DNA of 32,000 nt from Edaphobacter aggregans. Lineage in GTDB: Bacteria > Acidobacteriota > Terriglobia > Terriglobales > Acidobacteriaceae. Shown here piece by piece: positions 2,681-12,470 of this stretch. Position numbers and translations under genes: made by a program. The notes under the pieces are model-generated. The model was not told where the DNA came from, did no database searches, and saw only the letters and a list, made by a program, of their open reading frames with translations. The first letter of the stretch is position 1. Every line of letters starts with the position of its first letter. The DNA lies in assembly GCF_003945235.1 (NCBI RefSeq), contig NZ_RSDW01000001.1, forward strand, positions 630,001 through 662,000, in the 5' to 3' direction.

Positions 2681-2868
2681 CAGGCTCCTCGTAAAGAAAG
2701 CCCTTAGACGGCAACTGACTGATCTTTGCGCTGTCACCCTTGGGGAGTAGAACGGGCTTGAGAGCAAAATCTATCACAGGGCGTTCAGCGGGTTCAAACT
2801 GTCTAGAGACGGGAAATTCATGGCTTTGTAATAAAGGGTTGCGGCCTGGGGGCTTTAGACTTGCGGGC

Positions 2869-3213
2869 ATGAGCGATCAGGCGTTGACGTACAGCTCCAG
2901 CGAGACCGGCCGGGAAGGTTTTGTCTTGATGAAGCTGGTTGGCCCGTTGGTGCTGCCGAACATCTTTTCCCTTCAAACCGAACTGAAGACGAACAAGCCA
3001 CCGGTCATGATCTTCGATCTGAGCGAGGTTCCTTATATGGACTCGGCAGGAATTGGGGTTTTGATTAATTACTACGTTTCGGCGGAGAAGAACGACCGCA
3101 GGATGGCCCTGGTGGGGGTTAATGAACGGGTGGATGCTCTGCTGGTCCTGACGAAAGTTCAGGCATTGCTGCGGAAGTTTCCAACGGTGGAAGAAGCCGT
3201 AGCCAAGGCTTGA
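2869..3213 (+). CDS. STAS-domain protein (anti-sigma-factor antagonist, SpoIIAA-like)
   Basis: 114 aa from ATG 2869 (MSDQALTY...). The stretch FDLSEVPYMDSAGIGVLINYY is the characteristic STAS phosphorylation-loop region. The ORF-track start at 2740 adds an unlikely leader. Confidence 0.8.
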   Translation: MSDQALTYSSSETGREGFVLMKLVGPLVLPNIFSLQTELKTNKPPVMIFDLSEVPYMDSAGIGVLINYYVSAEKNDRRMALVGVNERVDALLVLTKVQALLRKFPTVEEAVAKA

Positions 3214-3260
3214 AAGTCGGCTTTCAGTGTAAGGTTTTGAGTGCTGCAATGATGCGTGTC

Positions 3261-3686
3261 TTACAGCTGGCACGTTAACTGGGCAGGACTACCAACACAG
3301 GAGCCACAATGAGAATGTTTGTAGCCGAACGGCAATGAAAGACTGTTCCCGACCGAAGACTTTGTTGTTTTCCTCCGATGGGGTATGTGTCCAGGCCAGC
3401 CGGGCAATGATTGTGCCGTCCGGAAATGGAAGAGTTCCAGCGCGATAGGCTGAAATTGCCGGATCGTGCCCAGGATAGCGCGAAGATCGTTAAGATTGCC
3501 TTCCTCGTGGGCCACAGAGATCAATCTCCAGTCGCGATATCCGGGAGGAAGCTGAATTTCGGAGATGGAAGGTATTTCGTTAGCAGCCACTCCTGGTGTG
3601 AGTGCCTTGGAAACGATAGCGCCGACCATTGCTGCCCCCGCTAACCTTTCTTTCGGTTTATGCACCAGCGTGGTTCCTGTAACCAA
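3261..3686 (-). pseudogene. Cytochrome P460 family gene remnant (frameshifted, 3'-truncated)
   Basis: The N-terminal part reads LPPGYRDWRLISVAHEEGNLNDLRAILG, then loses the family pattern. After a 1-nt frame change near 3463-3468 the reading continues PAISAYRAGTLPFPDGTIIARLAWTHTPSEENNKVFGREQSFIA to a stop at 3289. The expected ~60-70 C-terminal residues with the CxxCH haem site are absent. Confidence 0.6.
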
Positions 3687-3942
3687 ACCGCCAGACTAGT
3701 GGCAATGTGAATCTCAAAACAATAGAGTTTCGTTTAGCCGGATGGCCCATACCTTACCTTCACCATAAATCGGGTGCCCAATATCTCGATTCTGAGATGT
3801 GGGCATTCGCGCAAAGCGCGAACCGCTTTTCCTTTCCCCACAGGAATGCCTCAAGCTTGGATGAAATATCAGGACAGATCAAAGTGGCTTCAGCCCCAGC
3901 CTCCGCCTAATCGCCCCAGATGCCCATTCAAAAATATGTCAA

Positions 3943-4140
3943 TCCCCAAACCCCACTAACTTGCTGCAAATCTGCAAGATAGGGGTGCGTAGTAATTACG
4001 TCCATTTCTCTATATAATGGATATAGAGCCCAAAAGCCTCGGCGTTAGCCCGAGGCTTTCTTTTTTGGAAGAGGTATAGTTTTCAGAAAGCAGGTACCCA
4101 CCGAAGTCCGGGGCTAAAGTATTACTTTTGAATACTTTGC
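3943..4140 (+). repeat. Copy A of a conserved non-coding leader module, upstream of the 4170 gene
   Basis: Colinear similarity to the reverse complement of 10371-10680: TCCCCAAACCCC, GTGCGTAGTAATT, an AT hairpin, a GC terminator hairpin, and a 40-nt block at 4101-4140 with 29/40 identity to copy B, ungapped. Confidence 0.6.
4033..4067 (+). terminator. Rho-independent terminator hairpin with no upstream + strand gene (orphan)
   Basis: AAAGCCTCGG (4033-4042), 7-nt loop, CCGAGGCTTT (4050-4059), then a CTTTTTT tract. It is immediately preceded by the perfect 8-bp AT hairpin CTCTATAT-aatgg-ATATAGAG (4008-4028). Confidence 0.75.
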
Positions 4141-4169
4141 AACCTTAAGTAAAGGAGGGGAGGTACTAG

Positions 4170-5054
4170 TTGCATAGAAAGCAAACCGTCTGGATCGGCT
4201 TTCTCCTGCTCTGCCTCCTAAGAGCAACCGCGTGGATAATTCCCTCTAATCCGGACTCCCTACCCGCGGCGGAACAACAAGCGCTCCTGTACGGTATCGC
4301 CGGAATCGGAGCGTTCCTCTTCGCGAGACGGGGACTAACCCACCGCCTGGGAACTTCTGCCTGGGCTTCGCTGTCCATCACTAGCGTGGGCTTGCTGGGA
4401 CTGCCAGTTGTGCTGATCGGCTGGGCTCAAGGAAGCATCACGGAGACCGGAATATCCGCGTTATTCGCAGCGGTCCCCGCAGTGGTAGCAATCGGAATGG
4501 CCACGGGAACCGAGGGAGCAGGACGCAAATTCCTGACCCCGGCACTAGTCGCATTCGGAGGCGCTTTATTACTCCTGCCGGTTGATCTACCTGGATCACT
4601 CTCGGGCGACCTGAAACTGGCCGGATTGATCTTGGCGATTCTCTTGGTCGGCATCTGCAGCGTGCGAATGTTCCGACTCCTACAGTCGGTCGCCTACCTG
4701 GATGCTGTCGTGATCATCGGGCTCTCAAACGCAGTCTTCCTGATGATCTACTGCATCACAAACGGCTCGTTCCTATGGCGATGGAACCAATTGGCCCCCA
4801 TCACCTCCATCGCATCGTCAATCGACCTGATCGAAATAGCATTGCTGGTCTGGCTGCTACGAGAGCTGCCACCGATCCGCCTGTCTGCCCGCTATCTGGT
4901 GATTCCTCTCCTCACCGTGATTGAGGGATACATCGTATTGCAACCACAGATCACCGCGAGGCTAACCGTCGGAACCACCCTACTCACCGCCAGCGCCGCA
5001 TGGATACTGTTCGCCCGAATCGAAGAGAATGAGCCCGTGTTGTCACTCTCCTGA
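4170..5054 (+). CDS. Polytopic inner-membrane protein, possibly DMT/EamA-like transporter
   Basis: 294-aa ORF with about 9-10 hydrophobic segments, the size and topology of drug/metabolite transporters. TTG start preceded by AAAGGAGGGGAGG (4151-4163). The family assignment is by impression only. Confidence 0.65.
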   Translation: MHRKQTVWIGFLLLCLLRATAWIIPSNPDSLPAAEQQALLYGIAGIGAFLFARRGLTHRLGTSAWASLSITSVGLLGLPVVLIGWAQGSITETGISALFAAVPAVVAIGMATGTEGAGRKFLTPALVAFGGALLLLPVDLPGSLSGDLKLAGLILAILLVGICSVRMFRLLQSVAYLDAVVIIGLSNAVFLMIYCITNGSFLWRWNQLAPITSIASSIDLIEIALLVWLLRELPPIRLSARYLVIPLLTVIEGYIVLQPQITARLTVGTTLLTASAAWILFARIEENEPVLSLS

Positions 5055-5503
5055 TGTTTTTCTACAGGAAGTTTGGAGGTAAACTGCGAGGGATGGCTGC
5101 TTCCATGTACATCGTAGTTGAGGGTGAAGACCCCGGGTTCGACATCTTCGTAAACGGTCGCTCCCTCGCACGACACGAAGACGCACTCGAGAAGCTCGCC
5201 CTCCGCCAAGGAGTGAAGCCCCTCATCGAATTCTTCTCCGCCGACGAAAACTCGATGTCCCTTCTCATCGAAGAAGGTGCAGGCAACAAGGAGTTGATCC
5301 AGCGACTGCCACCCCCACAGTGGTATTCGCCAGACGACGGACTCATCACCGTGCAGGCGCTGGTTCGAGCCCTTGAAGATGAACCACAACAGCTCGGCTC
5401 CGAGGGCGAGCAGGTACTCTCCGAACTCCTCGAATATCGCAAGGTACTCGAAAAAACCAGATCCCGCGATCTGCGTTGGCACCTCGCCGTTAGTTGGCGA
5501 TAA
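5054..5503 (+). CDS. Hypothetical soluble acidic protein (no family recognised)
   Basis: The ATG at 5054 overlaps the stop of the upstream gene (TGATG). Alternative starts at 5093 (MAAS) and 5105 (MYIVVEG). Composition looks coding, with no TM segments. Confidence 0.55.
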   Translation: MFFYRKFGGKLRGMAASMYIVVEGEDPGFDIFVNGRSLARHEDALEKLALRQGVKPLIEFFSADENSMSLLIEEGAGNKELIQRLPPPQWYSPDDGLITVQALVRALEDEPQQLGSEGEQVLSELLEYRKVLEKTRSRDLRWHLAVSWR

Positions 5504-5530
5504 AGATCTAAGTAACTCCGCCAGTGCGAT

Positions 5531-8500
5531 TTATTTGATGACCTGAAGACTCGGTTGGAGGATCTTGAAGATGCTCCCGCCTATCTCTGGAAACTGGTAG
5601 GCAAACCAAGTCAGGACTGGTATGGCTCCAAAGCTGATGACGCGGATGTAGAAATCGCGGCCGAGTTCGTTAGGCTTGGTGTCGGTGATGCGGCTGAGGA
5701 TGGCGTTGCGGTGCATCTGTGCAAAGACCCAGATGAAGCCACAGCCGAGGAAGACCATCAGAAGGGTGAAGCACCAGTCGATAAGTTGGTGGGGTTGGAA
5801 GGGGTAGGAGTTCCAGGCGATGATAGCGAATACGAAGGCCGATGAGACGAAGAGCATGAGATACCGGGTGTTGACGAGGACCGCGCGAATGAGTGCGACA
5901 TAACGAATGGTGAGGAGCTCTTCGGCCAAACGAATATGAGTGGGGTCTTCCGGTGCGTCGGGATCGGGTATGGATTTGGAGCTATCGGAACCGGGGTGCT
6001 CCCCTTCCCCCTCCTCAACGAAGCCAACGCGCCGCTCATTCCAGTAGGGGATGAGGAGGTAAGCGAGGAGATGTTCGCAGAATTTCGCATACAGCATTTC
6101 GATTCTGTAGATATAGCCAAGATCGTAGCGGTGATCCTCTTCGGGTAGATCGTCATCACCTGGAGGAGCGGCGGGGGGGTTGGGTTCAGGTTTCGGCGGC
6201 GGTCGCATGGTGATGCGCTTACGCAGTTCCGTGATCTGATCAATGAGCTCATCATAAGTATCTGAAAGGTCTTTCCAATGGGCCCCCTCGCCGATTGCTT
6301 GGGCGAGGTCAGGATTATTGATGAGTTGGCGCAGGGATTCGGTGGAACGAGCCATATCGCGCCACCGGAAATGGAGGCTGCTCTGGGAAAGCATGGTCAT
6401 CCAGCCGACATCCTTGAGGCGGGTAAAGGCAAGACGGAGAGGTGTGCGCTCGAGCGGTTCCAGAAGGCCACGACTCAGCGCACCCCAGATGAAGATCATA
6501 CGCAGCCAGCCAGTGAGCGCGACCATGATGAGTGGAAAGAAGAGCGTGGCAATGAGGAACTCGTATGCTGTGGGCCAATGTCCGGGATGTAGAAGGAAAC
6601 GTTCCAGGCTTTGAATATGACCGCAGAAGATGCAAATCGCGAACAGGCCGAGGTAGATGGCGAAGAAGATCGCGTTCAGTTTGGTAGCCGACCAGCCGGT
6701 GAATCGGCGGATCGTCTCTCGCGTGATCAGAAGACATGTGACGTTTTCTATAAGACAGGAGTCGATGGGGGTTTTACATTGCGTCAGAGCGCTGTCAGAG
6801 ACGAAGAGTGGATAGGGGCTTTTGGTCGGCACATTATCTGGAAGCCTTGGCCTGCTCATCGTGGAAAAACGGAGACGAGCGGTCTGGAAGACGGACCAGA
6901 GATACCAACTGAAGAGAAGAAGGAGGATTGGGACTACGGGAGAGACTCCGCTTGTGGGATGAAGCGAGCGGTAGCTGAAGAATGGTCCTACATAGGATGC
7001 TGTGCCGTCTACTGTCGTCCGAAGACATATCCATATCCACAAGAGAGGGACAGCGACAACCGTAATAAGTGCCACCAAATTGAAGTAGGGATAGAGGCGA
7101 GTAGTAGATTCAGGGTTGATGCCCTTCGCGCGCCCGGAATGGGGAAGGGTGCGGCTTAGGGTGGCTATAAGAGCGGCGAATCCGGAGAGTAATGTGATGG
7201 ATGCGACGGTGAGGCTAGGAGTATCTACAAAATAAAAACGGTCTGTCGAAAACAAGGGAAAGAGCATGGCAAAGAGCGGAAATGACACCACGAAAGCCAT
7301 GGAGAAGAGAACAGATGTGCCGATGTTGATGTAGACCGATCTTCGGCGAGGTTGGTCGTTCTGGCGAACGGCGAGATCGCGGGTAAAAGCTGACCAGTAT
7401 TCGGCAGACAACATGACGGTGGTGTGGCCGATGCACAGACTGGTAATGAGAGTGCAGAGGACAAACCAAAAGAGCGAGGGAGCAGAGTTGGGAGACGCTG
7501 GGGCAAGACGGGGCCTGAACTGACCGTCTGTCTGCGAACAGACCTTGAGGCTACCTTCAACGATATTGGGCAGGATAGTCCGTGTATCGCTTGCGCATGG
7601 ACTGAGAATTCCAAGGGGATAGTAACCATCCCCGCCGACGGTGGTGGCCCAGAGTGGAATCTGCATCGTGTCGTTCGCTGTGCGTTGATAACCGGCGAAG
7701 GTTGGCTTCGAGTTTGAGGTGCCGAACCAGAAGATGTAGCTTGCTGCATTGTAGGCACGCTCGGCGTGCGCATCGGAGAAAGCACGTGCGGAGCCATTGG
7801 CGTTCTCGAGATCGATCAAGGTATAGGGAGTGATGACAATAGAGCCAATGTAAGGGACGTTGTCGACGTCGCGCTCAATAAGCAGGTCGCCCCCGTTGTA
7901 GAAGACGAGTCTCGCATCGGGGCAGGCGCGATGGAGGAATTGAGCGAGAAAGATCTCGTCGAGGATATTGGAACCGGCGATAAGGATGTACTGCGTGCGG
8001 TTGCGCTGGAGTTGACGGGCGATGGCCATCAACTCGGCCTCCTGGGAGAGTGGAGTTTGGGCACTGGAGAAGTGAGGAACCGTGTCGTCGGCGTCAGAGT
8101 CCTTAAGCGAAAGGTTGAGATAGGGACTGGGGGCGGCGCTGGACTCGCCGGATGACTTTCCCCCTTGGTCGATCTGAGCGTTACGCAGTAGTGATATCTC
8201 GCGAGGAAAGCGGATCTGAATTCCGCCTTGCTTCCCACTAGCATTTGCGTCACCGAATACTGTTCCCTCCTCTACGAGAATCGCGATGCGTCGGACATCG
8301 TAACGGGATTTATTAAGAGCGTCGAAGAGTCGCGACAATTCGAAGCCTGTGTTTTCGGCGAAAGAGACATAAGTTATCTTTTGCTCACCCTTCTTCTGCG
8401 AATTGAGTTCGCTGTTTGCGATTCCAGTAGAGGTCTCGCCAGCAACAATGATTTCGGGAGGAGCGTGATCAAACTTCGCGTTTTCGAGACCTTCTCTGAG

Positions 8501-9331
8501 TGATGCCGCTGAACCGGAAGAGAACGGGCCTATGATGGCAAGTCGATTCCCTTCTCCCATGGAGAGCCTGGCTTTGTAGTCTTTCTTGAGCATCGCCTCA
8601 TACCGCAGTGCGTTGCGAAGCTGAGTTCCATTCACGCCGAGTGCGGGGGTTTCGCCAACGAGAAATAGGTAGATAACGCGGTGATAGCCGGACCAGGCTA
8701 CGTCGGATTCTCCGGCTCCAGCTTTCGGGGCGAATTTGAGAATGATGAGACCAGGCTGCTGCTCTCGTTTAAGGTCCTGCTCGCTCTCGGGTGGGATCGT
8801 GGATGAGTCTCCAGAGGATGGCGGAGCGATGCGACTCTTCCAAGGAAGCCAGTATTGGCTTTCTAGAAAGCGATTGTCGGATGCGGCCTGCATGAAGGCA
8901 TCGATGGTTCGGTCAAATTCGAGCGCAAAGTGGCTGTGGATGGGGTCGGGAACGGTTGCAATGATGGCACGGATGTCTGGCTCGTGATCGGGTTCTGGAG
9001 GGGGAATGCCCCAGTTGTCACTGGCGCAGCTGGTTTCGGGGTTGTCTGTAGATGCGGTTGCTGGAGAATCGGCTTTGACGGCGGCTTGTTTTATGGATTT
9101 AGTCGATTGTGGAGGCTTTTTAGCGGTTGGAGGTTCTTTCCATCGGGCGGCGCTCCAGTAGCTGCAGGAGGCGAGCCAGGGGCCTTCGCCGGTGACTACA
9201 GATTGAGCAGATATGGGCTGTGATTTTGAGGCACTGGAGTTTCCATCACGACTTATGGTGGCGTGGAACATGGCTCCAGCCAGAGCGGCTGCTCCGATAC
9301 CGGCGGCTCCCAGTCCTCGCTTCATCTCCAT
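5531..9331 (-). CDS. Very large (1266 aa) polytopic membrane protein with ~600-aa extracytoplasmic N-terminal domain; function unknown
   Basis: Uninterrupted 3.8-kb ORF. N-terminal anchor/signal GLGAAGIGAAALAGAMF. A long hydrophilic region with alternating beta-alpha-like pattern (LAIIGPFSSGSAASL, IIVAGETSTG, ILIAGSNILDE). At least 9 hydrophobic helices. A cytoplasmic insert with the Pro-rich stretch RPPPKPEPNPPAAPPGDDDLPEED. Confidence 0.85.
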   Translation of the reverse strand: MEMKRGLGAAGIGAAALAGAMFHATISRDGNSSASKSQPISAQSVVTGEGPWLASCSYWSAARWKEPPTAKKPPQSTKSIKQAAVKADSPATASTDNPETSCASDNWGIPPPEPDHEPDIRAIIATVPDPIHSHFALEFDRTIDAFMQAASDNRFLESQYWLPWKSRIAPPSSGDSSTIPPESEQDLKREQQPGLIILKFAPKAGAGESDVAWSGYHRVIYLFLVGETPALGVNGTQLRNALRYEAMLKKDYKARLSMGEGNRLAIIGPFSSGSAASLREGLENAKFDHAPPEIIVAGETSTGIANSELNSQKKGEQKITYVSFAENTGFELSRLFDALNKSRYDVRRIAILVEEGTVFGDANASGKQGGIQIRFPREISLLRNAQIDQGGKSSGESSAAPSPYLNLSLKDSDADDTVPHFSSAQTPLSQEAELMAIARQLQRNRTQYILIAGSNILDEIFLAQFLHRACPDARLVFYNGGDLLIERDVDNVPYIGSIVITPYTLIDLENANGSARAFSDAHAERAYNAASYIFWFGTSNSKPTFAGYQRTANDTMQIPLWATTVGGDGYYPLGILSPCASDTRTILPNIVEGSLKVCSQTDGQFRPRLAPASPNSAPSLFWFVLCTLITSLCIGHTTVMLSAEYWSAFTRDLAVRQNDQPRRRSVYINIGTSVLFSMAFVVSFPLFAMLFPLFSTDRFYFVDTPSLTVASITLLSGFAALIATLSRTLPHSGRAKGINPESTTRLYPYFNLVALITVVAVPLLWIWICLRTTVDGTASYVGPFFSYRSLHPTSGVSPVVPILLLLFSWYLWSVFQTARLRFSTMSRPRLPDNVPTKSPYPLFVSDSALTQCKTPIDSCLIENVTCLLITRETIRRFTGWSATKLNAIFFAIYLGLFAICIFCGHIQSLERFLLHPGHWPTAYEFLIATLFFPLIMVALTGWLRMIFIWGALSRGLLEPLERTPLRLAFTRLKDVGWMTMLSQSSLHFRWRDMARSTESLRQLINNPDLAQAIGEGAHWKDLSDTYDELIDQITELRKRITMRPPPKPEPNPPAAPPGDDDLPEEDHRYDLGYIYRIEMLYAKFCEHLLAYLLIPYWNERRVGFVEEGEGEHPGSDSSKSIPDPDAPEDPTHIRLAEELLTIRYVALIRAVLVNTRYLMLFVSSAFVFAIIAWNSYPFQPHQLIDWCFTLLMVFLGCGFIWVFAQMHRNAILSRITDTKPNELGRDFYIRVISFGAIPVLTWFAYQFPEIGGSIFKILQPSLQVIK

Positions 9332-9477
9332 TGCTGCGCTCGCATGGCTGCGTTCCTCGATGATTCTGGATACGGGCCCGACTGCGTTAGAGAGGATCTA
9401 GCCTTTGGTGGAGCGAAGTTTAGCACAGGCCCATCGTGCAGGATGAGTCTTTCGTTTGGTTCGCCTGTGGTGCAGGG

Positions 9478-10272
9478 CTACCAGGCGTGGTGGAAGCCGT
9501 CCTTTTGCGTGAGGTGGACTTCAGTCCTGAAAAGAGCGCTGAGGTGGGGGGCGGTGAGGAGTTCAGACTTGGGGCCGTCGGCCACGATGCGGCCATCCTT
9601 CATCATCAGGATGCGGTCGATCTCGGGGATGATGTCGGAGACGTGGTGGGTGATGAGGAGGATGCCGGTTCCCTGCTGGGCCAGGCGGCGTAGGAGGTCG
9701 CGGAGGTCTTGCTGGGCGGCGATGTCGAGGGCGTTGGAGGGCTCGTCGAGGAGGAGCATCTGGCGGTCTGAGCCGGTGCTGGAGGAGCCTACGAGAGCGC
9801 GGCCGATCATGATGCGGCGCTGCTGGCCGGCGGACATTTCTCCTACGGGTTTGTTGGCCAGGGGGACGGCGCCGATCTGCTCGAGGACTTCGTCGGCGCG
9901 GGTGCGCATGGCTTCGGTGACGGTGAGGTTGGGCCAGAGGGTCGAGCTTGAAAAGAAGCCGGTGAGGACGGCGTCGCGGCCGGTGGTGGTCAGGGTTTGG
10001 CGGCCGGGGAGCTCAGCGGAGACCACTCCGAGGCGTTTCTTGAGCTCGGTCAGGTCCCAGCGCTCACGTCCGAAGATGCTGACGGTTGTGTCGGGCTGGG
10101 CGATGGGGTAGCACTCGCAGGTGATGGTCTTGATGAGGGTCGACTTGCCGCAGCCGTTGGGGCCGAGGATTGCAATATGCTCGCCGGCGTTGACTGAGAG
10201 GTTGATGTCGTGGAGGACGATGTTTTCGCCGCGAGCTACGTTTACATGGGCCAGGTGCAGGAAGGGTGTCAT
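9478..10272 (-). CDS. Stand-alone ABC-transporter ATP-binding protein (ModF/YlmA-like)
   Basis: Walker A GPNGCGKST, signature MSAGQQRR, Walker B LLLLDEPSNALD, H-loop ITHH. I prefer the start at ATG 10272 (MTPFLHLAHVNV), preceded by AAGGTGA. The ORF is also open in frame from TTG 10383. Confidence 0.9.
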   Translation of the reverse strand: MTPFLHLAHVNVARGENIVLHDINLSVNAGEHIAILGPNGCGKSTLIKTITCECYPIAQPDTTVSIFGRERWDLTELKKRLGVVSAELPGRQTLTTTGRDAVLTGFFSSSTLWPNLTVTEAMRTRADEVLEQIGAVPLANKPVGEMSAGQQRRIMIGRALVGSSSTGSDRQMLLLDEPSNALDIAAQQDLRDLLRRLAQQGTGILLITHHVSDIIPEIDRILMMKDGRIVADGPKSELLTAPHLSALFRTEVHLTQKDGFHHAW

Positions 10273-10370
10273 GCTCACCTTAGAATACTGTTCCTCGTGG
10301 CGACTGCGGATCTTCAGGCTGTGTTGTAAATTAGCAGACTTCAATGGACTCCCAAGGGGTACATTTTCGC

Positions 10371-10680
10371 GCAAAGTATTCAATATAAAAGGTTTGGCTT
10401 TGGACTTCCGTTTACTGTGATACGGAAAGTCTCTGGATTCAGGGGTTTGATGAATATGGCAGACGCAAAGTATTGATTTAATGATCCCTAGCGGGTAAGT
10501 CTCCTTTTGGATTTGAAATTAAAGAGAAAGCCCCGGTGGTTGGCCGGGGCTTTTATCTCTATATCTAGTATAGCGAATTGGGTGGAATTACTATGCACGC
10601 GAATCTTCGTGATTGGTGCGGCGATTTGCTATTTGGGGGCTTGACAGGTTTTGCTGTGGATAAATTTTCGGGGTTGGGGA
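10371..10680 (-). repeat. Copy B of the conserved non-coding leader module, upstream of the ABC ATPase gene
   Basis: The reverse complement is colinear with 3943-4140, with two extra segments of about 40 and 80 nt. It contains CGCAAAGTATT twice on the + strand (10370-10380 and 10464-10474). Confidence 0.6.
10515..10553 (-). terminator. Orphan terminator hairpin, - strand reading (possibly bidirectional)
   Basis: On the - strand: AAAGCCCCGG, 7-nt loop, CCGGGGCTTT, then CTCTTTAATTT. No - strand gene lies upstream of it. On the + strand the hairpin is followed by TTTTAT. Confidence 0.6.
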
Positions 10681-10796
10681 GCGATTCCAAGGACGAAGGA
10701 CAATTCTGCCCAGATACTTGCTCATGCCGTAATCAGGCTGTTGAATAGGGGATGGTGAATAGCCGGCAGTATATCTAAGGATCGGATAATCAACAG

Positions 10797-12470
10797 TTGA
10801 ACAAGCTCGGTGTACTGACCTTACTCTCGATCGTCGTTGGCGGGCCGGCTGTCGGCCAAACACGTGACTCCCATGCAGGACTACCGCACCTCGAAAAGCG
10901 TGGAGGTGCAACCCAGCTCATCGTTGATGGCAAGCCTTTTCTGGTTCTTGGGGGAGAGCTGCATAACTCCAGCTCCTCCAGCGTTGCGTACATGAAGCCG
11001 GTTTGGCCGCGGCTCACAGCAATGCACATGAATACAGTGTTGTCGCCTGTCGCATGGGAGACGATCGAACCTGAAGAGGGGAAGTTCGATTTCAGTGTGG
11101 TGGATAGGCTTCTAGAAGGAGCACGCGCGAACAACCTCAAACTTGTAATTCTGTGGTTTGGCGCATGGAAGAATACGTACTCCAGCTACGTGCCAGCCTG
11201 GGTCAAGACTGATACGGAACGGTTCCCTCGCGTTCAGACCAGCGACGGCCGAAGCACAGAGCGACTATCGCCTTTCAGTACGGCTGTTCGGGATGCAGAC
11301 GCGCGCGCCTTCGCGAGACTGATGCGTCACCTGCGAGAGGTGGATGGAGATACGCATACTGTGCTGATGGTGCAGGTCGAAAATGAGGTCGGTGTGATTC
11401 CTGAATCACGGGATCATTCGGCTGTCGCGAATGCCGCTTTCTCGGGAGCGGTACCATCAGCCCTCATGAGTTTTCTGCAGAAGCATCGGACAACATTGGA
11501 TCCGGAGTTTCGCGCAGCCTGGGAGGCGGCGGGCGGGAAGACCGCGGGGACGTGGCAGGAGGTGTTCGGCAAAACTTCTCTGACAGATGATCTCTTCATG
11601 GCCTGGCACTACGCCACCTACATCGAGCATGTAACGGCAGCAGGCAAGGCGGAGTACCCTCTACCGATGTTCGCGAATGCTGCGCTGATCCGGCCTAATT
11701 ATGAACCAGGACAGTACAACAGCGGTGGTCCGCTTCCCCATTCGATGGATGTATGGCATGCCGGAGCGCCGTCTCTTGATCTTTTGTCGCCCGACATCTA
11801 CTTCAATGAATTTGCGCTGTGGGCAGGCAGGTATGCGCGTCCTGACAACCCGCTCTTCATCCCGGAGGCGCAAGGGGGGGCAGCGGGCGCCGCTAATGCG
11901 CTTTATGCTTTTGGACATCTGTCGGCTATGGGATTCTCTCCGTTTGGCGTCGACGATCAAGGTAACGCTCCGCTCGACCTGGTGGGTATCACCAATTCTT
12001 CGGAGCGCCCGGATAACTCCGCTATAGGCAACGTGTATAGCGAATTGTCCAAACTGGCGCCGATGATTCTGGAAAAACAAGGAACGGGTGGCGTCACTGC
12101 CGCGCTCATGGAAGGCGAAGCACAGCGGTCGGCGAGGCTTTATCTCGGTGACTATACAGCGACCATGACTCGGGCTGGAGGTTCGTCCGGCGCGGGAGCG
12201 CGACTGGCTGCGATGTTTATTCAGACGGGCCCGAATGAATTTCTGGTTGCAGGCAGCGGCGATGCTCAGATCACCTTCTCGACGGACAAACCCGGGCTAC
12301 CCATTGTTGGCATTGAGAGTATCGACGAAGAGTTCTTTGAGAATGGAGCCTGGGTGCCGGGAAGGCGTCTGAATGGTGACGAAAACTCTCAGGGGCAGGC
12401 CTTGAGACTCTATGCTTCTGATTTGGCTCAAGGCAAAATTTATCGAGTGCGGCTTTATCGCTATCGCTAG
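10797..12470 (+). CDS. Secreted glycoside hydrolase, GH35-like TIM barrel with DUF5597-type C-terminal region (probable beta-galactosidase-type enzyme)
   Basis: 557-aa ORF with signal peptide MNKLGVLTLLSIVVGGPAVGQ. The N-terminal region QLIVDGKPFLVLGGELHNSS...VAWETIEPEEGKFDF...LVILWFGAWKN is typical of this family. Confidence 0.8.
   Translation: MNKLGVLTLLSIVVGGPAVGQTRDSHAGLPHLEKRGGATQLIVDGKPFLVLGGELHNSSSSSVAYMKPVWPRLTAMHMNTVLSPVAWETIEPEEGKFDFSVVDRLLEGARANNLKLVILWFGAWKNTYSSYVPAWVKTDTERFPRVQTSDGRSTERLSPFSTAVRDADARAFARLMRHLREVDGDTHTVLMVQVENEVGVIPESRDHSAVANAAFSGAVPSALMSFLQKHRTTLDPEFRAAWEAAGGKTAGTWQEVFGKTSLTDDLFMAWHYATYIEHVTAAGKAEYPLPMFANAALIRPNYEPGQYNSGGPLPHSMDVWHAGAPSLDLLSPDIYFNEFALWAGRYARPDNPLFIPEAQGGAAGAANALYAFGHLSAMGFSPFGVDDQGNAPLDLVGITNSSERPDNSAIGNVYSELSKLAPMILEKQGTGGVTAALMEGEAQRSARLYLGDYTATMTRAGGSSGAGARLAAMFIQTGPNEFLVAGSGDAQITFSTDKPGLPIVGIESIDEEFFENGAWVPGRRLNGDENSQGQALRLYASDLAQGKIYRVRLYRYR

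What the first reader, a model, noticed from the sequence alone, without database searches (positions are those of the whole stretch)
3860..10727. Two diverged, inward-facing copies of one non-coding module precede two convergent operons of unknown function
The two AT-richer gaps 3860-4140 (+ strand) and 10371-10727 (read on the - strand) are diverged copies of one module. They share four colinear blocks. (i) TCCCCAA(A)CCCC at 3943-3954 and 10680-10670. (ii) GTGCrTAGTAATT followed by an AT-rich hairpin CTATA-loop-TATAGAG at 3985-4028 and 10598-10557, with 16/20 identical over the first 20 nt. (iii) A GC-rich hairpin plus T tract, AAAAGCCyCGG-loop-CCGrGGCTTTCTyTTT, at 4033-4067 and 10553-10515. 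(iv) An ungapped 40-nt block at 4101-4140 and 10410-10371 with 29/40 identical and the last 13 nt, TTGAATACTTTGC, identical. Weaker similarity (ATGA..AA.TATC.GG.CAGA) may extend the module to 3860 and 10727. Copy B carries about 40 and 80 extra nt between blocks. Each copy points at, and sits directly upstream of, the first gene of one of two convergent units: 4170->5503 on +, and 10272->5531 on -. The proteins of the two units are unrelated to each other. Frame-breaking indels argue against a conserved peptide. Neither hairpin has an upstream gene on its strand that would need a terminator. The simplest reading is a shared 5' leader (attenuator, riboswitch-like or protein-bound) or a pair of paralogous sRNA genes co-regulating this 6.2-kb gene set. 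I do not recognise it as any named riboswitch or RNA family.
Basis: seen in the sequence. Interest (0 to 1): 0.85.

Follow-up and report, generated by a model that had tools for sequence, protein, structure and literature searches.

The report
Widespread Acidobacteriaceae promoter-terminator-leader cassette
The two look-alike non-coding stretches are real, but they are not a private pair: they are two members of a large, undescribed family of roughly 200-400-base intergenic cassettes in Acidobacteriaceae, found next to many unrelated genes and carrying promoter-like, terminator-like and ribosome-binding signals.

Summary
A profile built only from copies found elsewhere hits this 32-kb Edaphobacter aggregans window exactly twice at full length: 3936-4069 (+), E 1e-22, and 10648-10518 (-), E 6e-31.

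About 24 distinct copies turned up in 432 kb of related DNA. They lie upstream of unrelated genes (alanine racemase, cinA, MATE, phoH, yjbQ and others). In 4 of 13 contexts the copy points into the 3' end of a convergent gene.

Every copy has the same polar order:
- a TGTCAAGCCCC box;
- a gap-free block TKGC-TAATT-CCAA-CGC-TATAMT-N6-AGAG;
- a GC hairpin with T-rich tails on both strands;
- 1-3 GAATACTTTGC boxes, the last inside AAGTCC-N4-CTAA-N12-GAATACTTTGC;
- a G-rich ribosome-binding box.

Only the GC hairpin is conserved as a structure. Everything else is conserved as sequence. There is no Rfam match and I found no literature.

Best reading: a cis-acting expression cassette read by one unknown sequence-specific factor, which places both operons in a larger shared regulon. 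Which start site feeds the genes is not resolved. An ERIC/BOX-like repeat is the main rival. Interest is moderate.

The parts
3937..3947 (+). Copy A: upstream box TGTCAATCCCC (family consensus yCTGTCAAGCCCC)
   Evidence: Aligned with the same box in 20 of 22 copies
3985..4004 (+). Copy A: GTGCGTAGTAATTACGTCCA, the fixed-spacing boxes TKGC / TAATT / CCA(A)
   Evidence: High-information columns with essentially no gaps among 22 paralogous copies
4011..4028 (+). Copy A: -10-like TATATAAT, then AGAG (4025-4028), a predicted start region
   Evidence: Family consensus CGC-TATAMT-N6-AGAG. That this is a start site is inferred, not shown
4032..4066 (+). Copy A: GC hairpin AAAAGCCTCGG-loop-CCGAGGCTTT plus T tract; terminator-like on both strands
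4104..4140 (+). Copy A: proximal block AAGTCC-N4-CTAA-N12-GAATACTTTGC. In this copy it also forms the inverted repeat AAAGTATT-N7-AATACTTT
   Evidence: Logo of 23 copies; nhmmer with the proximal profile; arm pairing seen only in the A subfamily
4148..4169 (+). Copy A: AAGTA box and G-rich ribosome-binding box GGAGGGGAGGTAC, directly before the TTG start at 4170
4170..5503 (+). Unit 1: 294-aa multi-pass membrane protein (4170-5054) and 149-aa protein (5054-5503); no Pfam or NCBIfam match
5531..10272 (-). Unit 2: ABC ATPase (10272-9478) and 1266-aa membrane protein EDE15_0552 (9331-5531; no Pfam, NCBIfam or PDB match)
10655..10663 (-). Copy B: TTATCCACA (DnaA-box-like), conserved in B-type copies
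   Evidence: Read
10635..10646 (-). Copy B: upstream box TGTCAAGCCCCC
10557..10598 (-). Copy B: GTGCATAGTAATTCCACCCAATTCGC-TATACT (10572-10567)-AGATAT-AGAG (10560-10557)
10515..10554 (-). Copy B: GC hairpin AAAAGCCCCGG-loop-CCGGGGCTTT plus T-rich tail. Carries a compensatory T-A to C-G change relative to copy A
10465..10477 (-). Copy B: extra upstream box ATCAATACTTTGC, 94 nt before the last box
   Evidence: Conserved with the same 94-95 nt spacing in L001, L008, L009 and L020
10423..10434 (-). Copy B: AGAGACTTTCCG, a box variant inside the B-subfamily block CTGAATCCAGAGACTTTCCG
   Evidence: Invariant across the 6 B-type sequences
10371..10407 (-). Copy B: proximal block AAGTCC-N4-CCAA-N12-GAATACTTTGC
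10281..10293 (-). Copy B: box in the opposite orientation (GAACAGTATTCTA) overlapping the ribosome-binding site of the ABC gene; conserved in all B-type copies that precede the ABC gene

Best explanation
Each copy is one instance of a family-wide, polar expression cassette of Acidobacteriaceae. It supplies transcription and translation signals to whatever lies downstream.

Read 5' to 3', the cassette contains:
1. DNA boxes at fixed spacing: TGTCAAGCCCC, then about 45 nt, then TKGC-N4-TAATT-N3-CCAA-N2-CGC-TATAMT.
2. A predicted start at AGAG, 6-7 nt after the -10-like hexamer.
3. A strong GC hairpin 3-12 nt later, with T-rich tails on both strands. It should stop most transcripts from that start after about 40-50 nt, and block transcription entering from either side.
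4. One to three GAATACTTTGC boxes. The last sits in a fixed-geometry block AAGTCC-N4-CTAA-N12-GAATACTTTGC, 10-15 nt before a G-rich ribosome-binding box and a start codon.

The boxes are conserved as sequence, not as helices. I therefore infer that one sequence-specific factor reads them. It could be an alternative sigma factor or transcription factor acting at a second, gene-proximal promoter, or an RNA-binding factor acting on read-through transcripts. That factor would set the output of every gene carrying the cassette.

On this reading the two convergent operons are co-regulated, but as members of a larger set of dozens of genes, not as a private pair.

Shown: family membership, architecture, polarity, hairpin structure, and linkage of the parts. 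Inferred: the start sites, termination, the existence of the factor, and co-regulation.
For: Family membership. A profile built without window sequences finds exactly these two loci in 32 kb. About 24 distinct copies share the same order of boxes.

Selection. Orthologous copies upstream of the ABC operon are 71-74% identical over 275-350 nt in genomes whose proteins are about 83-85% identical, which points to purifying selection.

Core block. It has almost no indels among 22 paralogues and no consensus RNA fold. CGC-TATAMT-N6-AGAG is its most conserved part.

Hairpin. It is paired in 95.5% of cells, with 3 pairs carrying compensatory changes. T-rich tails are present on both strands.

Linkage. 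33 of 34 proximal-block hits have a core upstream on the same strand within 450 nt. GAATACTTTGC-like sites were never seen in intergenic DNA outside a cassette in 432 kb.

Proximal block. It has fixed spacing and high information content, and ends 10-15 nt before a G-rich box and a start codon.

Context. In 9 of 13 evaluable contexts a co-oriented gene or short ORF follows. The cassette is absent from the housekeeping promoters of tig, clpP, clpX, lon and clpB, so it is not the general promoter type.
Against: There are no expression data, so neither start site is shown.

The -10-like hexamer has no TTGACA-like partner at 16-18 nt. The conserved TKGC lies 19-20 nt upstream.

The proximal block matches no promoter consensus I could name. 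I checked sigma-70, sigma-54, ECF, sigma-32 and the Bacteroidetes -33/-7 type by reading the sequences.

In 4 of 13 contexts the cassette points into the 3' end of a convergent gene: GNAT (L006, L010), ClC channel (L019, L020), ftsK (L022, L037), and a small HTH ORF (L021). A co-oriented fraction of 9 of 13 is no higher than expected for any independent gene.

An obligatory short unit upstream, made of the -10-like box and the terminator, has no obvious purpose if the proximal block is the real promoter. Conversely, boxes that lie downstream of the hairpin cannot help polymerase read through it.
Confidence: 0.5

Rival explanations
1. It is a single long 5' leader. All gene transcripts start at the TATAMT promoter. 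The GC hairpin is a conditional promoter-proximal terminator or a 5' stabilising stem-loop. The GAAUACUUUGC boxes act in the RNA, for example as sites for an RNA-binding regulator or a boxA/Nus-like or ops-like element.
For: The core and the proximal boxes are strictly linked and polar. TATAMT-N6-AGAG is conserved. The hairpin plus U tract is conserved. All universal boxes lie on the sense strand in one orientation. UACUUUG loosely resembles the CUCUUUA core of rrn boxA; this is recalled from memory and was not tested.
Against: No structure other than the hairpin is conserved in 22 cores or in 6 full B-type leaders. The arm pairings AAAGUAUU/AAUACUUU occur in only one subfamily. The hairpin follows the predicted start by 3-12 nt, so no upstream antiterminator can form. 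The boxes lie after the terminator they would have to override.
Confidence: 0.25
2. It is an ancient ERIC/BOX/Correia-like intergenic repeat: a modular element spread by transposition or recombination. Its promoter-like and terminator-like parts are incidental or only locally co-opted.
For: There are many copies in unrelated intergenic contexts. The build is modular, with 1-3 internal boxes, much like boxA-(boxB)n-boxC. Copies are about 70% alike and kept at orthologous sites. Four of 13 contexts have no co-oriented downstream gene. There is presence/absence variation upstream of the same ABC operon.
Against: I found no terminal inverted repeats or target-site duplications. No near-identical copies occur within a genome: A against B is 72%. 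Strong purifying selection acts over 275-350 nt at orthologous sites. The fixed internal polarity ends in a ribosome-binding box placed directly before start codons in several unrelated genes.
Confidence: 0.15
3. The copies are paralogous small-RNA genes acting in trans. Each would be either a roughly 40-50-nt RNA from TATAMT to the hairpin, or a reverse-strand RNA ending at the same hairpin.
For: A promoter-like -10 is followed at once by a terminator-like hairpin in every copy. T tails are good on both strands. Some copies stand between convergent genes.
Against: The segment between the start and the hairpin is 3-12 nt long and is conserved only as AGAG, so there is no conserved seed. This reading does not explain why the downstream boxes and the ribosome-binding box are always attached in cis. 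I found no consistent reverse-strand promoter by reading the logos.
Confidence: 0.08

Closest known systems
JUMPStart/ops leaders of RfaH-dependent operons, and leaders served by other NusG paralogues such as LoaP (from established knowledge)
   Same: A conserved short sequence box of about 12 nt, sometimes repeated, lies in one orientation in long leaders of otherwise unrelated operons. Leader-embedded terminators are present.
   Different: No sequence similarity to ops (GGCGGTAG). Here the boxes lie downstream of the terminator-like hairpin. The downstream genes are not long polysaccharide or antibiotic operons. No NusG paralogue was linked to the cassette.
BOX elements of Streptococcus pneumoniae, ERIC of enterobacteria and Correia elements of Neisseria (from established knowledge)
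   Same: Modular, 100-400-nt intergenic repeats present in dozens to hundreds of copies. Copies are diverged and kept at orthologous sites, and they can carry promoters, terminators or protein-binding sites.
   Different: No terminal inverted repeats. The only conserved secondary structure is one short hairpin rather than a long imperfect palindrome. Polarity is strict, and the cassette ends in a ribosome-binding box.
Promoter-proximal terminators of phage late operons (lambda PR'-tR' under Q control), and pyrG-type attenuation by reiterative transcription in Bacillus subtilis (from established knowledge)
   Same: A promoter is followed very closely by an intrinsic terminator, so read-through must be set at or near initiation by elements close to the promoter. 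Here there are conserved DNA boxes at about -38 to -18.
   Different: No Q-like gene, Q-binding element or phage context was identified. No homopolymeric start region was seen. This is an analogy only.
rrn and lambda boxA/boxB (Nus-factor antitermination sites) (from established knowledge)
   Same: A hairpin is followed by a short U-rich linear box (UACUUUG/A here, CUCUUUA in boxA), with repeats possible.
   Different: Similarity is limited to about 5 nt and was recalled, not tested. I could not obtain the boxA sequence of Acidobacteriaceae rrn operons.

Membership tests
Any Rfam 15 family (riboswitch, leader, sRNA) | Covariance-model score at or above the family gathering threshold | tested here: not met
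   Window 3000-11500 with E up to 10 gave only terminator-shaped hits far below threshold, the best at 23 bits against a gathering score of 37. Eight related loci at gathering threshold gave 0 hits.
Riboswitch or structured cis-regulatory leader | A conserved multi-helix fold supported by covariation | tested here: not met
   RNAalifold on 22 cores and on 6 full B-type leaders supports only the GC hairpin. Candidate arm pairings are not general.
Classical transcription attenuator | An antiterminator structure that competes with the terminator | tested here: not met
   The hairpin begins 3-12 nt after the predicted start, and no conserved complementary segment precedes it in the RNA.
Intrinsic (Rho-independent) terminator; applies to the hairpin only | A GC-rich stem-loop followed by a T tract | tested here: met
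   A 10-bp stem with 6-7 GC pairs and a T-rich tail on both strands. 95.5% of cells are paired and 3 pairs carry compensatory changes. Termination itself was not measured.
Sigma-70 promoter (core block) | -10 TATAAT-like hexamer | tested here: met
   TATAAT, TATACT or a near variant occurs in all 23 aligned copies, preceded by CGC and followed by AGAG at +7.
Sigma-70 promoter (core block) | -35 TTGACA-like hexamer 16-18 nt upstream of the -10 | tested here: not met
   The consensus scan does not call it. The conserved TKGC lies 19-20 nt upstream.
Sigma-54 promoter (core or proximal block) | GG and GC elements 10 nt apart (TGGCAC-N5-TTGC) | tested here: not met
   Read directly from the logos. 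In the proximal block, the copies that have GG show a spacing of GG-N8-GC. In the core, GG is present in only about 6 of 22 copies and the -12 GC is absent.
REP/BOX/ERIC/MITE-type repeat | Many copies in unrelated intergenic regions | tested here: met
   About 24 distinct copies in 432 kb of held DNA, with second copies on 3 contigs. A whole-genome count was not possible.
REP/BOX/ERIC/MITE-type repeat | Terminal inverted repeats or an overall palindrome, target-site duplications, and near-identical recent copies | tested here: not met
   No long-range pairing appears in the alignments. The two copies in this one genome are 72% alike. I looked for TIRs and TSDs only by eye.
REP/BOX/ERIC/MITE-type repeat | Insertion without regard to the orientation of neighbouring genes | tested here: inconclusive
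   9 contexts have a co-oriented downstream gene and 4 point into a convergent gene. The sample is too small.
Trans-acting sRNA gene | Own promoter and terminator plus a conserved single-stranded seed | tested here: inconclusive
   Promoter-like and terminator-like parts are present, but only 3-12 poorly conserved nt lie between them. Expression is not testable here.
boxA / Nus-factor site | A match to the organism's own rrn boxA and binding by NusB-NusE | not testable with these tools
   No rrn leader of Acidobacteriaceae could be fetched. The resemblance is recalled only.

The most novel reading that the evidence does not exclude
The cassette marks a large regulon, specific to Acidobacteriaceae, that is run by a mechanism not yet described in this phylum. 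One possibility is a new promoter class (AAGTCC-N4-CTAA-N12-GAATACTTTGC) read by an alternative sigma or activator and always insulated by an upstream self-terminating mini-unit. The other is initiation-coupled control of a promoter-proximal terminator. Either way, a single factor would switch dozens of stress-type and membrane genes together, including the uncharacterised ABC + 1266-aa system.
Probability: 0.3. Interest if true: 0.75.

Novelty: new variant of a known kind. Interest (0 to 1): 0.55.

Why it matters
Acidobacteriaceae are among the most abundant soil bacteria, yet almost nothing is known about how they control transcription. I found no paper on their promoter motifs or transcription start sites. 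A conserved cassette attached to dozens of unrelated genes would give a ready-made handle on an unknown regulator: use the boxes as bait for DNA or RNA pull-downs. It would define a regulon that includes a widespread, wholly uncharacterised membrane system, the 1266-aa protein with its ABC ATPase. It could also supply expression parts for genetic tools in a phylum that has few. If it proves to be only an ERIC/BOX-like repeat, it is still a new repeat family that annotators should recognise.

Tried and rejected
- Rfam, by E-value on the window and at gathering threshold on 8 loci, and a tRNA scan: nothing.
- Peptide-coding: the short ORFs that overlap or follow the copies (32/46 aa upstream; 5-31 aa after the G-rich box in other copies) are not conserved in sequence, frame or presence. 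Rejected.
- Terminal repeats of a transposon bounding the 6.9-kb segment: there is no transposase inside, and the two gene units are separable in relatives. Rejected.
- General housekeeping promoter type: the cassette is absent upstream of tig, clpP, clpX, lon and clpB in the window and in L045/L046. Rejected. A k-mer enrichment scan of upstream regions was uninformative because the loci were chosen for having the cassette.
- Named promoter or operator types, compared by reading the sequences: sigma-54, sigma-32, sigma-B, ECF (GGAAC/GTAAC-N16-CGT), SigR/SigK types, Bacteroidetes TAnnTTTG, ARG box, CRP/FNR, LexA and IHF sites. None fits both sequence and spacing.
- RNA switch by alternative pairing of AAAGUAUU, AAUACUUU and AAAGUA arms: the pairing is significant in only one subfamily. 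Rejected as the general constraint.
- A reverse-strand promoter using the perfect TTGACA formed by the TGTCAA box: no -10 follows at 14-18 nt in any copy. Rejected.
- Literature searches on Acidobacteria promoters and start sites, on the motif string, and on REP surveys found nothing relevant.
- Function of the 294-aa, 149-aa and 1266-aa proteins: no Pfam, NCBIfam or PDB sequence match. Structure prediction was not attempted.
- One search was an empty script. The look-up found nothing on record.

Full report
**Source and gene context.** The 1266-aa protein encoded at 9331-5531(-) is 100% identical to EDE15_0552 of Edaphobacter aggregans, so the window comes from that genome. Copy A lies in the 483-nt gap between a leftward cytochrome-P460-like ORF fragment and a rightward 294-aa membrane-protein gene (4170-5054), which is followed by a 149-aa gene (5054-5503). 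Copy B lies in the 524-nt gap between a leftward ABC-ATPase gene (10272-9478, followed by the 1266-aa gene) and a rightward GH35/42 gene. The 294-aa, 149-aa and 1266-aa proteins have no Pfam, NCBIfam or PDB sequence match.

**Checking the observation.** blastn of A against B gives 72% over 90 nt and 73% over 41 nt. The most stringent test used a profile built from 19 copies found on other contigs. It hits the window at full length only at 10648-10518(-), E 6e-31, and 3936-4069(+), E 1e-22.

Three details need correcting:
- The AT-rich hairpin is not conserved as a helix elsewhere in the family.
- The extension to 3860 and 10727 is unsupported.

**Orthologous loci.** A metagenomic relative with 83% protein identity (L001) keeps the same convergent layout and both modules. 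B' is 71% identical to B over 275 nt, and A' is recognisable. L008 and L009 keep B at 72-74% over 350 nt. At this protein divergence neutral intergenic DNA should be hard to align, so I infer the region is under selection.

Other relatives at 80-85% identity (L004-L006, L008-L010) keep the ABC + 1266-aa pair but not the 294/149-aa pair. L006 and L010 have no module B upstream of the ABC gene; they carry two small hydrophobic ORFs there instead. The two units and their modules are therefore not an obligatory set.

**A large family.** L010 and L006 carry a complete copy in a different place, pointing at the 3' end of a convergent acetyltransferase-type gene. One metagenome scan with a skeleton pattern of the core returned 26 loci, about 20 of them genuine. 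A profile search of everything held (432 kb) found about 24 distinct copies, including second copies on three contigs that the pattern had not selected.

Downstream genes are unrelated to one another: alanine racemase, cinA, a MATE transporter, a sugar epimerase, yjbQ, an agmatine-deiminase-like gene, phoH, the ABC operon and the 294-aa gene. Several follow a short non-conserved ORF. In 4 of 13 evaluable contexts the copy faces a convergent gene: the acetyltransferase-type gene, a ClC channel, ftsK and a small HTH ORF. I found no copy in 25 kb of unselected Edaphobacter-like DNA around tig-clpP-clpX-lon, nor upstream of those genes in the window. It is therefore not the general promoter type. 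From these small samples I estimate tens to perhaps a few hundred copies per genome. This is a rough figure.

**Anatomy.** Logos anchored on the two most conserved points give one polar architecture:
- (TTATCCACA in some copies), then yCTGTCAAGCCCC, then about 45 nt;
- AGAT..TKGC-N4-TAATT-N3-CCAA-N2-CGC-TATAMT-N6-AGAG, then 3-12 nt;
- AAAAGCCCCGG-loop-CCGGGGCTTTT, then 40-250 nt holding 0-2 extra GAATACTTTGC boxes;
- AAGTCC-N4-CTAA-N12-GAATACTTTGC, then N3-5, AAAGTA, GGGGGAGGGGGTACC and a start codon.

The core block has almost no indels among 22 paralogues and no consensus RNA fold. The only predicted helix is the GC hairpin. That hairpin is paired in 95.5% of cells. Three of its pairs carry compensatory changes, more than in shuffled or slid controls. 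T-rich tails follow the stem on both strands, with a mean of 6.2 T (forward) and 5.4 T (reverse) in 9 nt. Six full B-type leaders show long blocks of invariant sequence but no covarying helices. The inverted repeat AAAGTATT-N7-AATACTTT seen in copy A is a real hairpin only in the A subfamily. The proximal block is never found without a core upstream on the same strand (33 of 34 hits). GAATACTTTGC-like sites were not seen in intergenic DNA outside a cassette.

**Interpretation.** Eight or more boxes keep the same order and spacing in copies next to unrelated genes. That indicates common descent of the copies and a shared function for the whole unit. Most of the unit is constrained as sequence, so I infer that proteins read it on DNA or on RNA.

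CGC-TATAMT-N6-AGAG has the form of a -10 element and a start site. However, the expected -35 is missing at 16-18 nt; a conserved TKGC sits at 19-20 nt instead. Transcripts from that start would meet a strong hairpin plus U tract almost at once. No upstream RNA is available to form an antiterminator, and the repeated boxes lie downstream of the hairpin. A classical attenuator or riboswitch is therefore not supported.

The proximal block has promoter-like geometry: three boxes within 35 bp, ending 10-15 nt before the ribosome-binding box. It matches none of the consensus types I compared it with. I therefore commit only to the level the data support. This is a cis-acting expression cassette read by one unknown sequence-specific factor. 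The hairpin acts as a two-way terminator or insulator. Which of the two candidate starts feeds the downstream genes remains unresolved.

The main rival is an ancient ERIC/BOX-like repeat. In its favour are the many copies, the modular box number, the four convergent contexts and the presence/absence variation. Against it are the lack of terminal repeats, the lack of near-identical copies, strong conservation at orthologous sites, and the fixed polarity that ends at start codons.

**Comparison with known systems and novelty.** There is no Rfam match. Literature searches on Acidobacteria promoters, on the motif string and on REP surveys found nothing. The nearest analogues are JUMPStart/ops-type leaders, BOX/ERIC/Correia repeats, promoter-proximal terminators of the lambda PR'-tR' type, and boxA/boxB sites. 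The cassette shares general logic with each and fails at least one defining feature of each (see the membership table). I rate it a new variant of a known kind, namely an intergenic regulatory repeat or cassette. Interest is moderate (0.55), rising if one factor proves to control the whole set.

Noticed in passing
L006:2100-2800 and L010:5400-5920: Upstream of the orthologous ABC ATPase gene these relatives lack module B. They carry two tandem copies of a 30-aa hydrophobic ORF instead (MYLFFTPAFAALTVIALIQLRDQFRFSTPR and a variant), each with its own ribosome-binding site and a hairpin plus T tract.
   Followed up: no
window 10655-10663 (-): A perfect DnaA-box-like TTATCCACA sits about 8 nt upstream of the TGTCAAGCCCC box. 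It is also present in the B-type copies of L001, L008, L009 and in L043, with near variants in L022 and L031.
   Followed up: partly
window 2818-3686 (-): Two adjacent ORFs of 151 and 141 aa look like one cytochrome-P460-like gene split by a frameshift. Neither has a Pfam hit, and the resemblance is recalled from the YRDW...LRAILG motif only.
   Followed up: no
window 5531-10272 (-), and P0001-P0120: The 1266-aa membrane protein has no Pfam, NCBIfam or PDB match, yet it has at least 391 relatives, all named ones from Acidobacteriaceae. In the closest relatives it is always preceded by the same ABC ATPase (92-95% identical). More distant relatives (62-65%) lack the ATPase next to it.
   Followed up: partly
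L025, L029, L035, L042 (chance hits of the pattern scan): More than 400 nt of densely repeated GGTTGTCAAACC / GGTTTGACAACC units in both orientations. These are unrelated to the cassette.
   Followed up: no
L027:1000-1090 and L034:12340-12420: A conserved non-coding stretch (CCTTCGCTGGTTAGTCCC...AAATTCATCATTTG) lies between the cassette and a phoH-like gene. It has no Rfam hit.
   Followed up: no
L021:3200-3571: A cassette copy stops right after the GC hairpin, where a convergent small helix-turn-helix (excisionase-like) ORF ends. This may be a copy interrupted by an inserted element.
   Followed up: no
L008 and L009 (same MAG, two contigs): The whole ABC + 1266-aa locus, with module B and its upstream gene, is present twice in one metagenome-assembled genome at near identity. 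This is either a duplication or two strains binned together.
   Followed up: no
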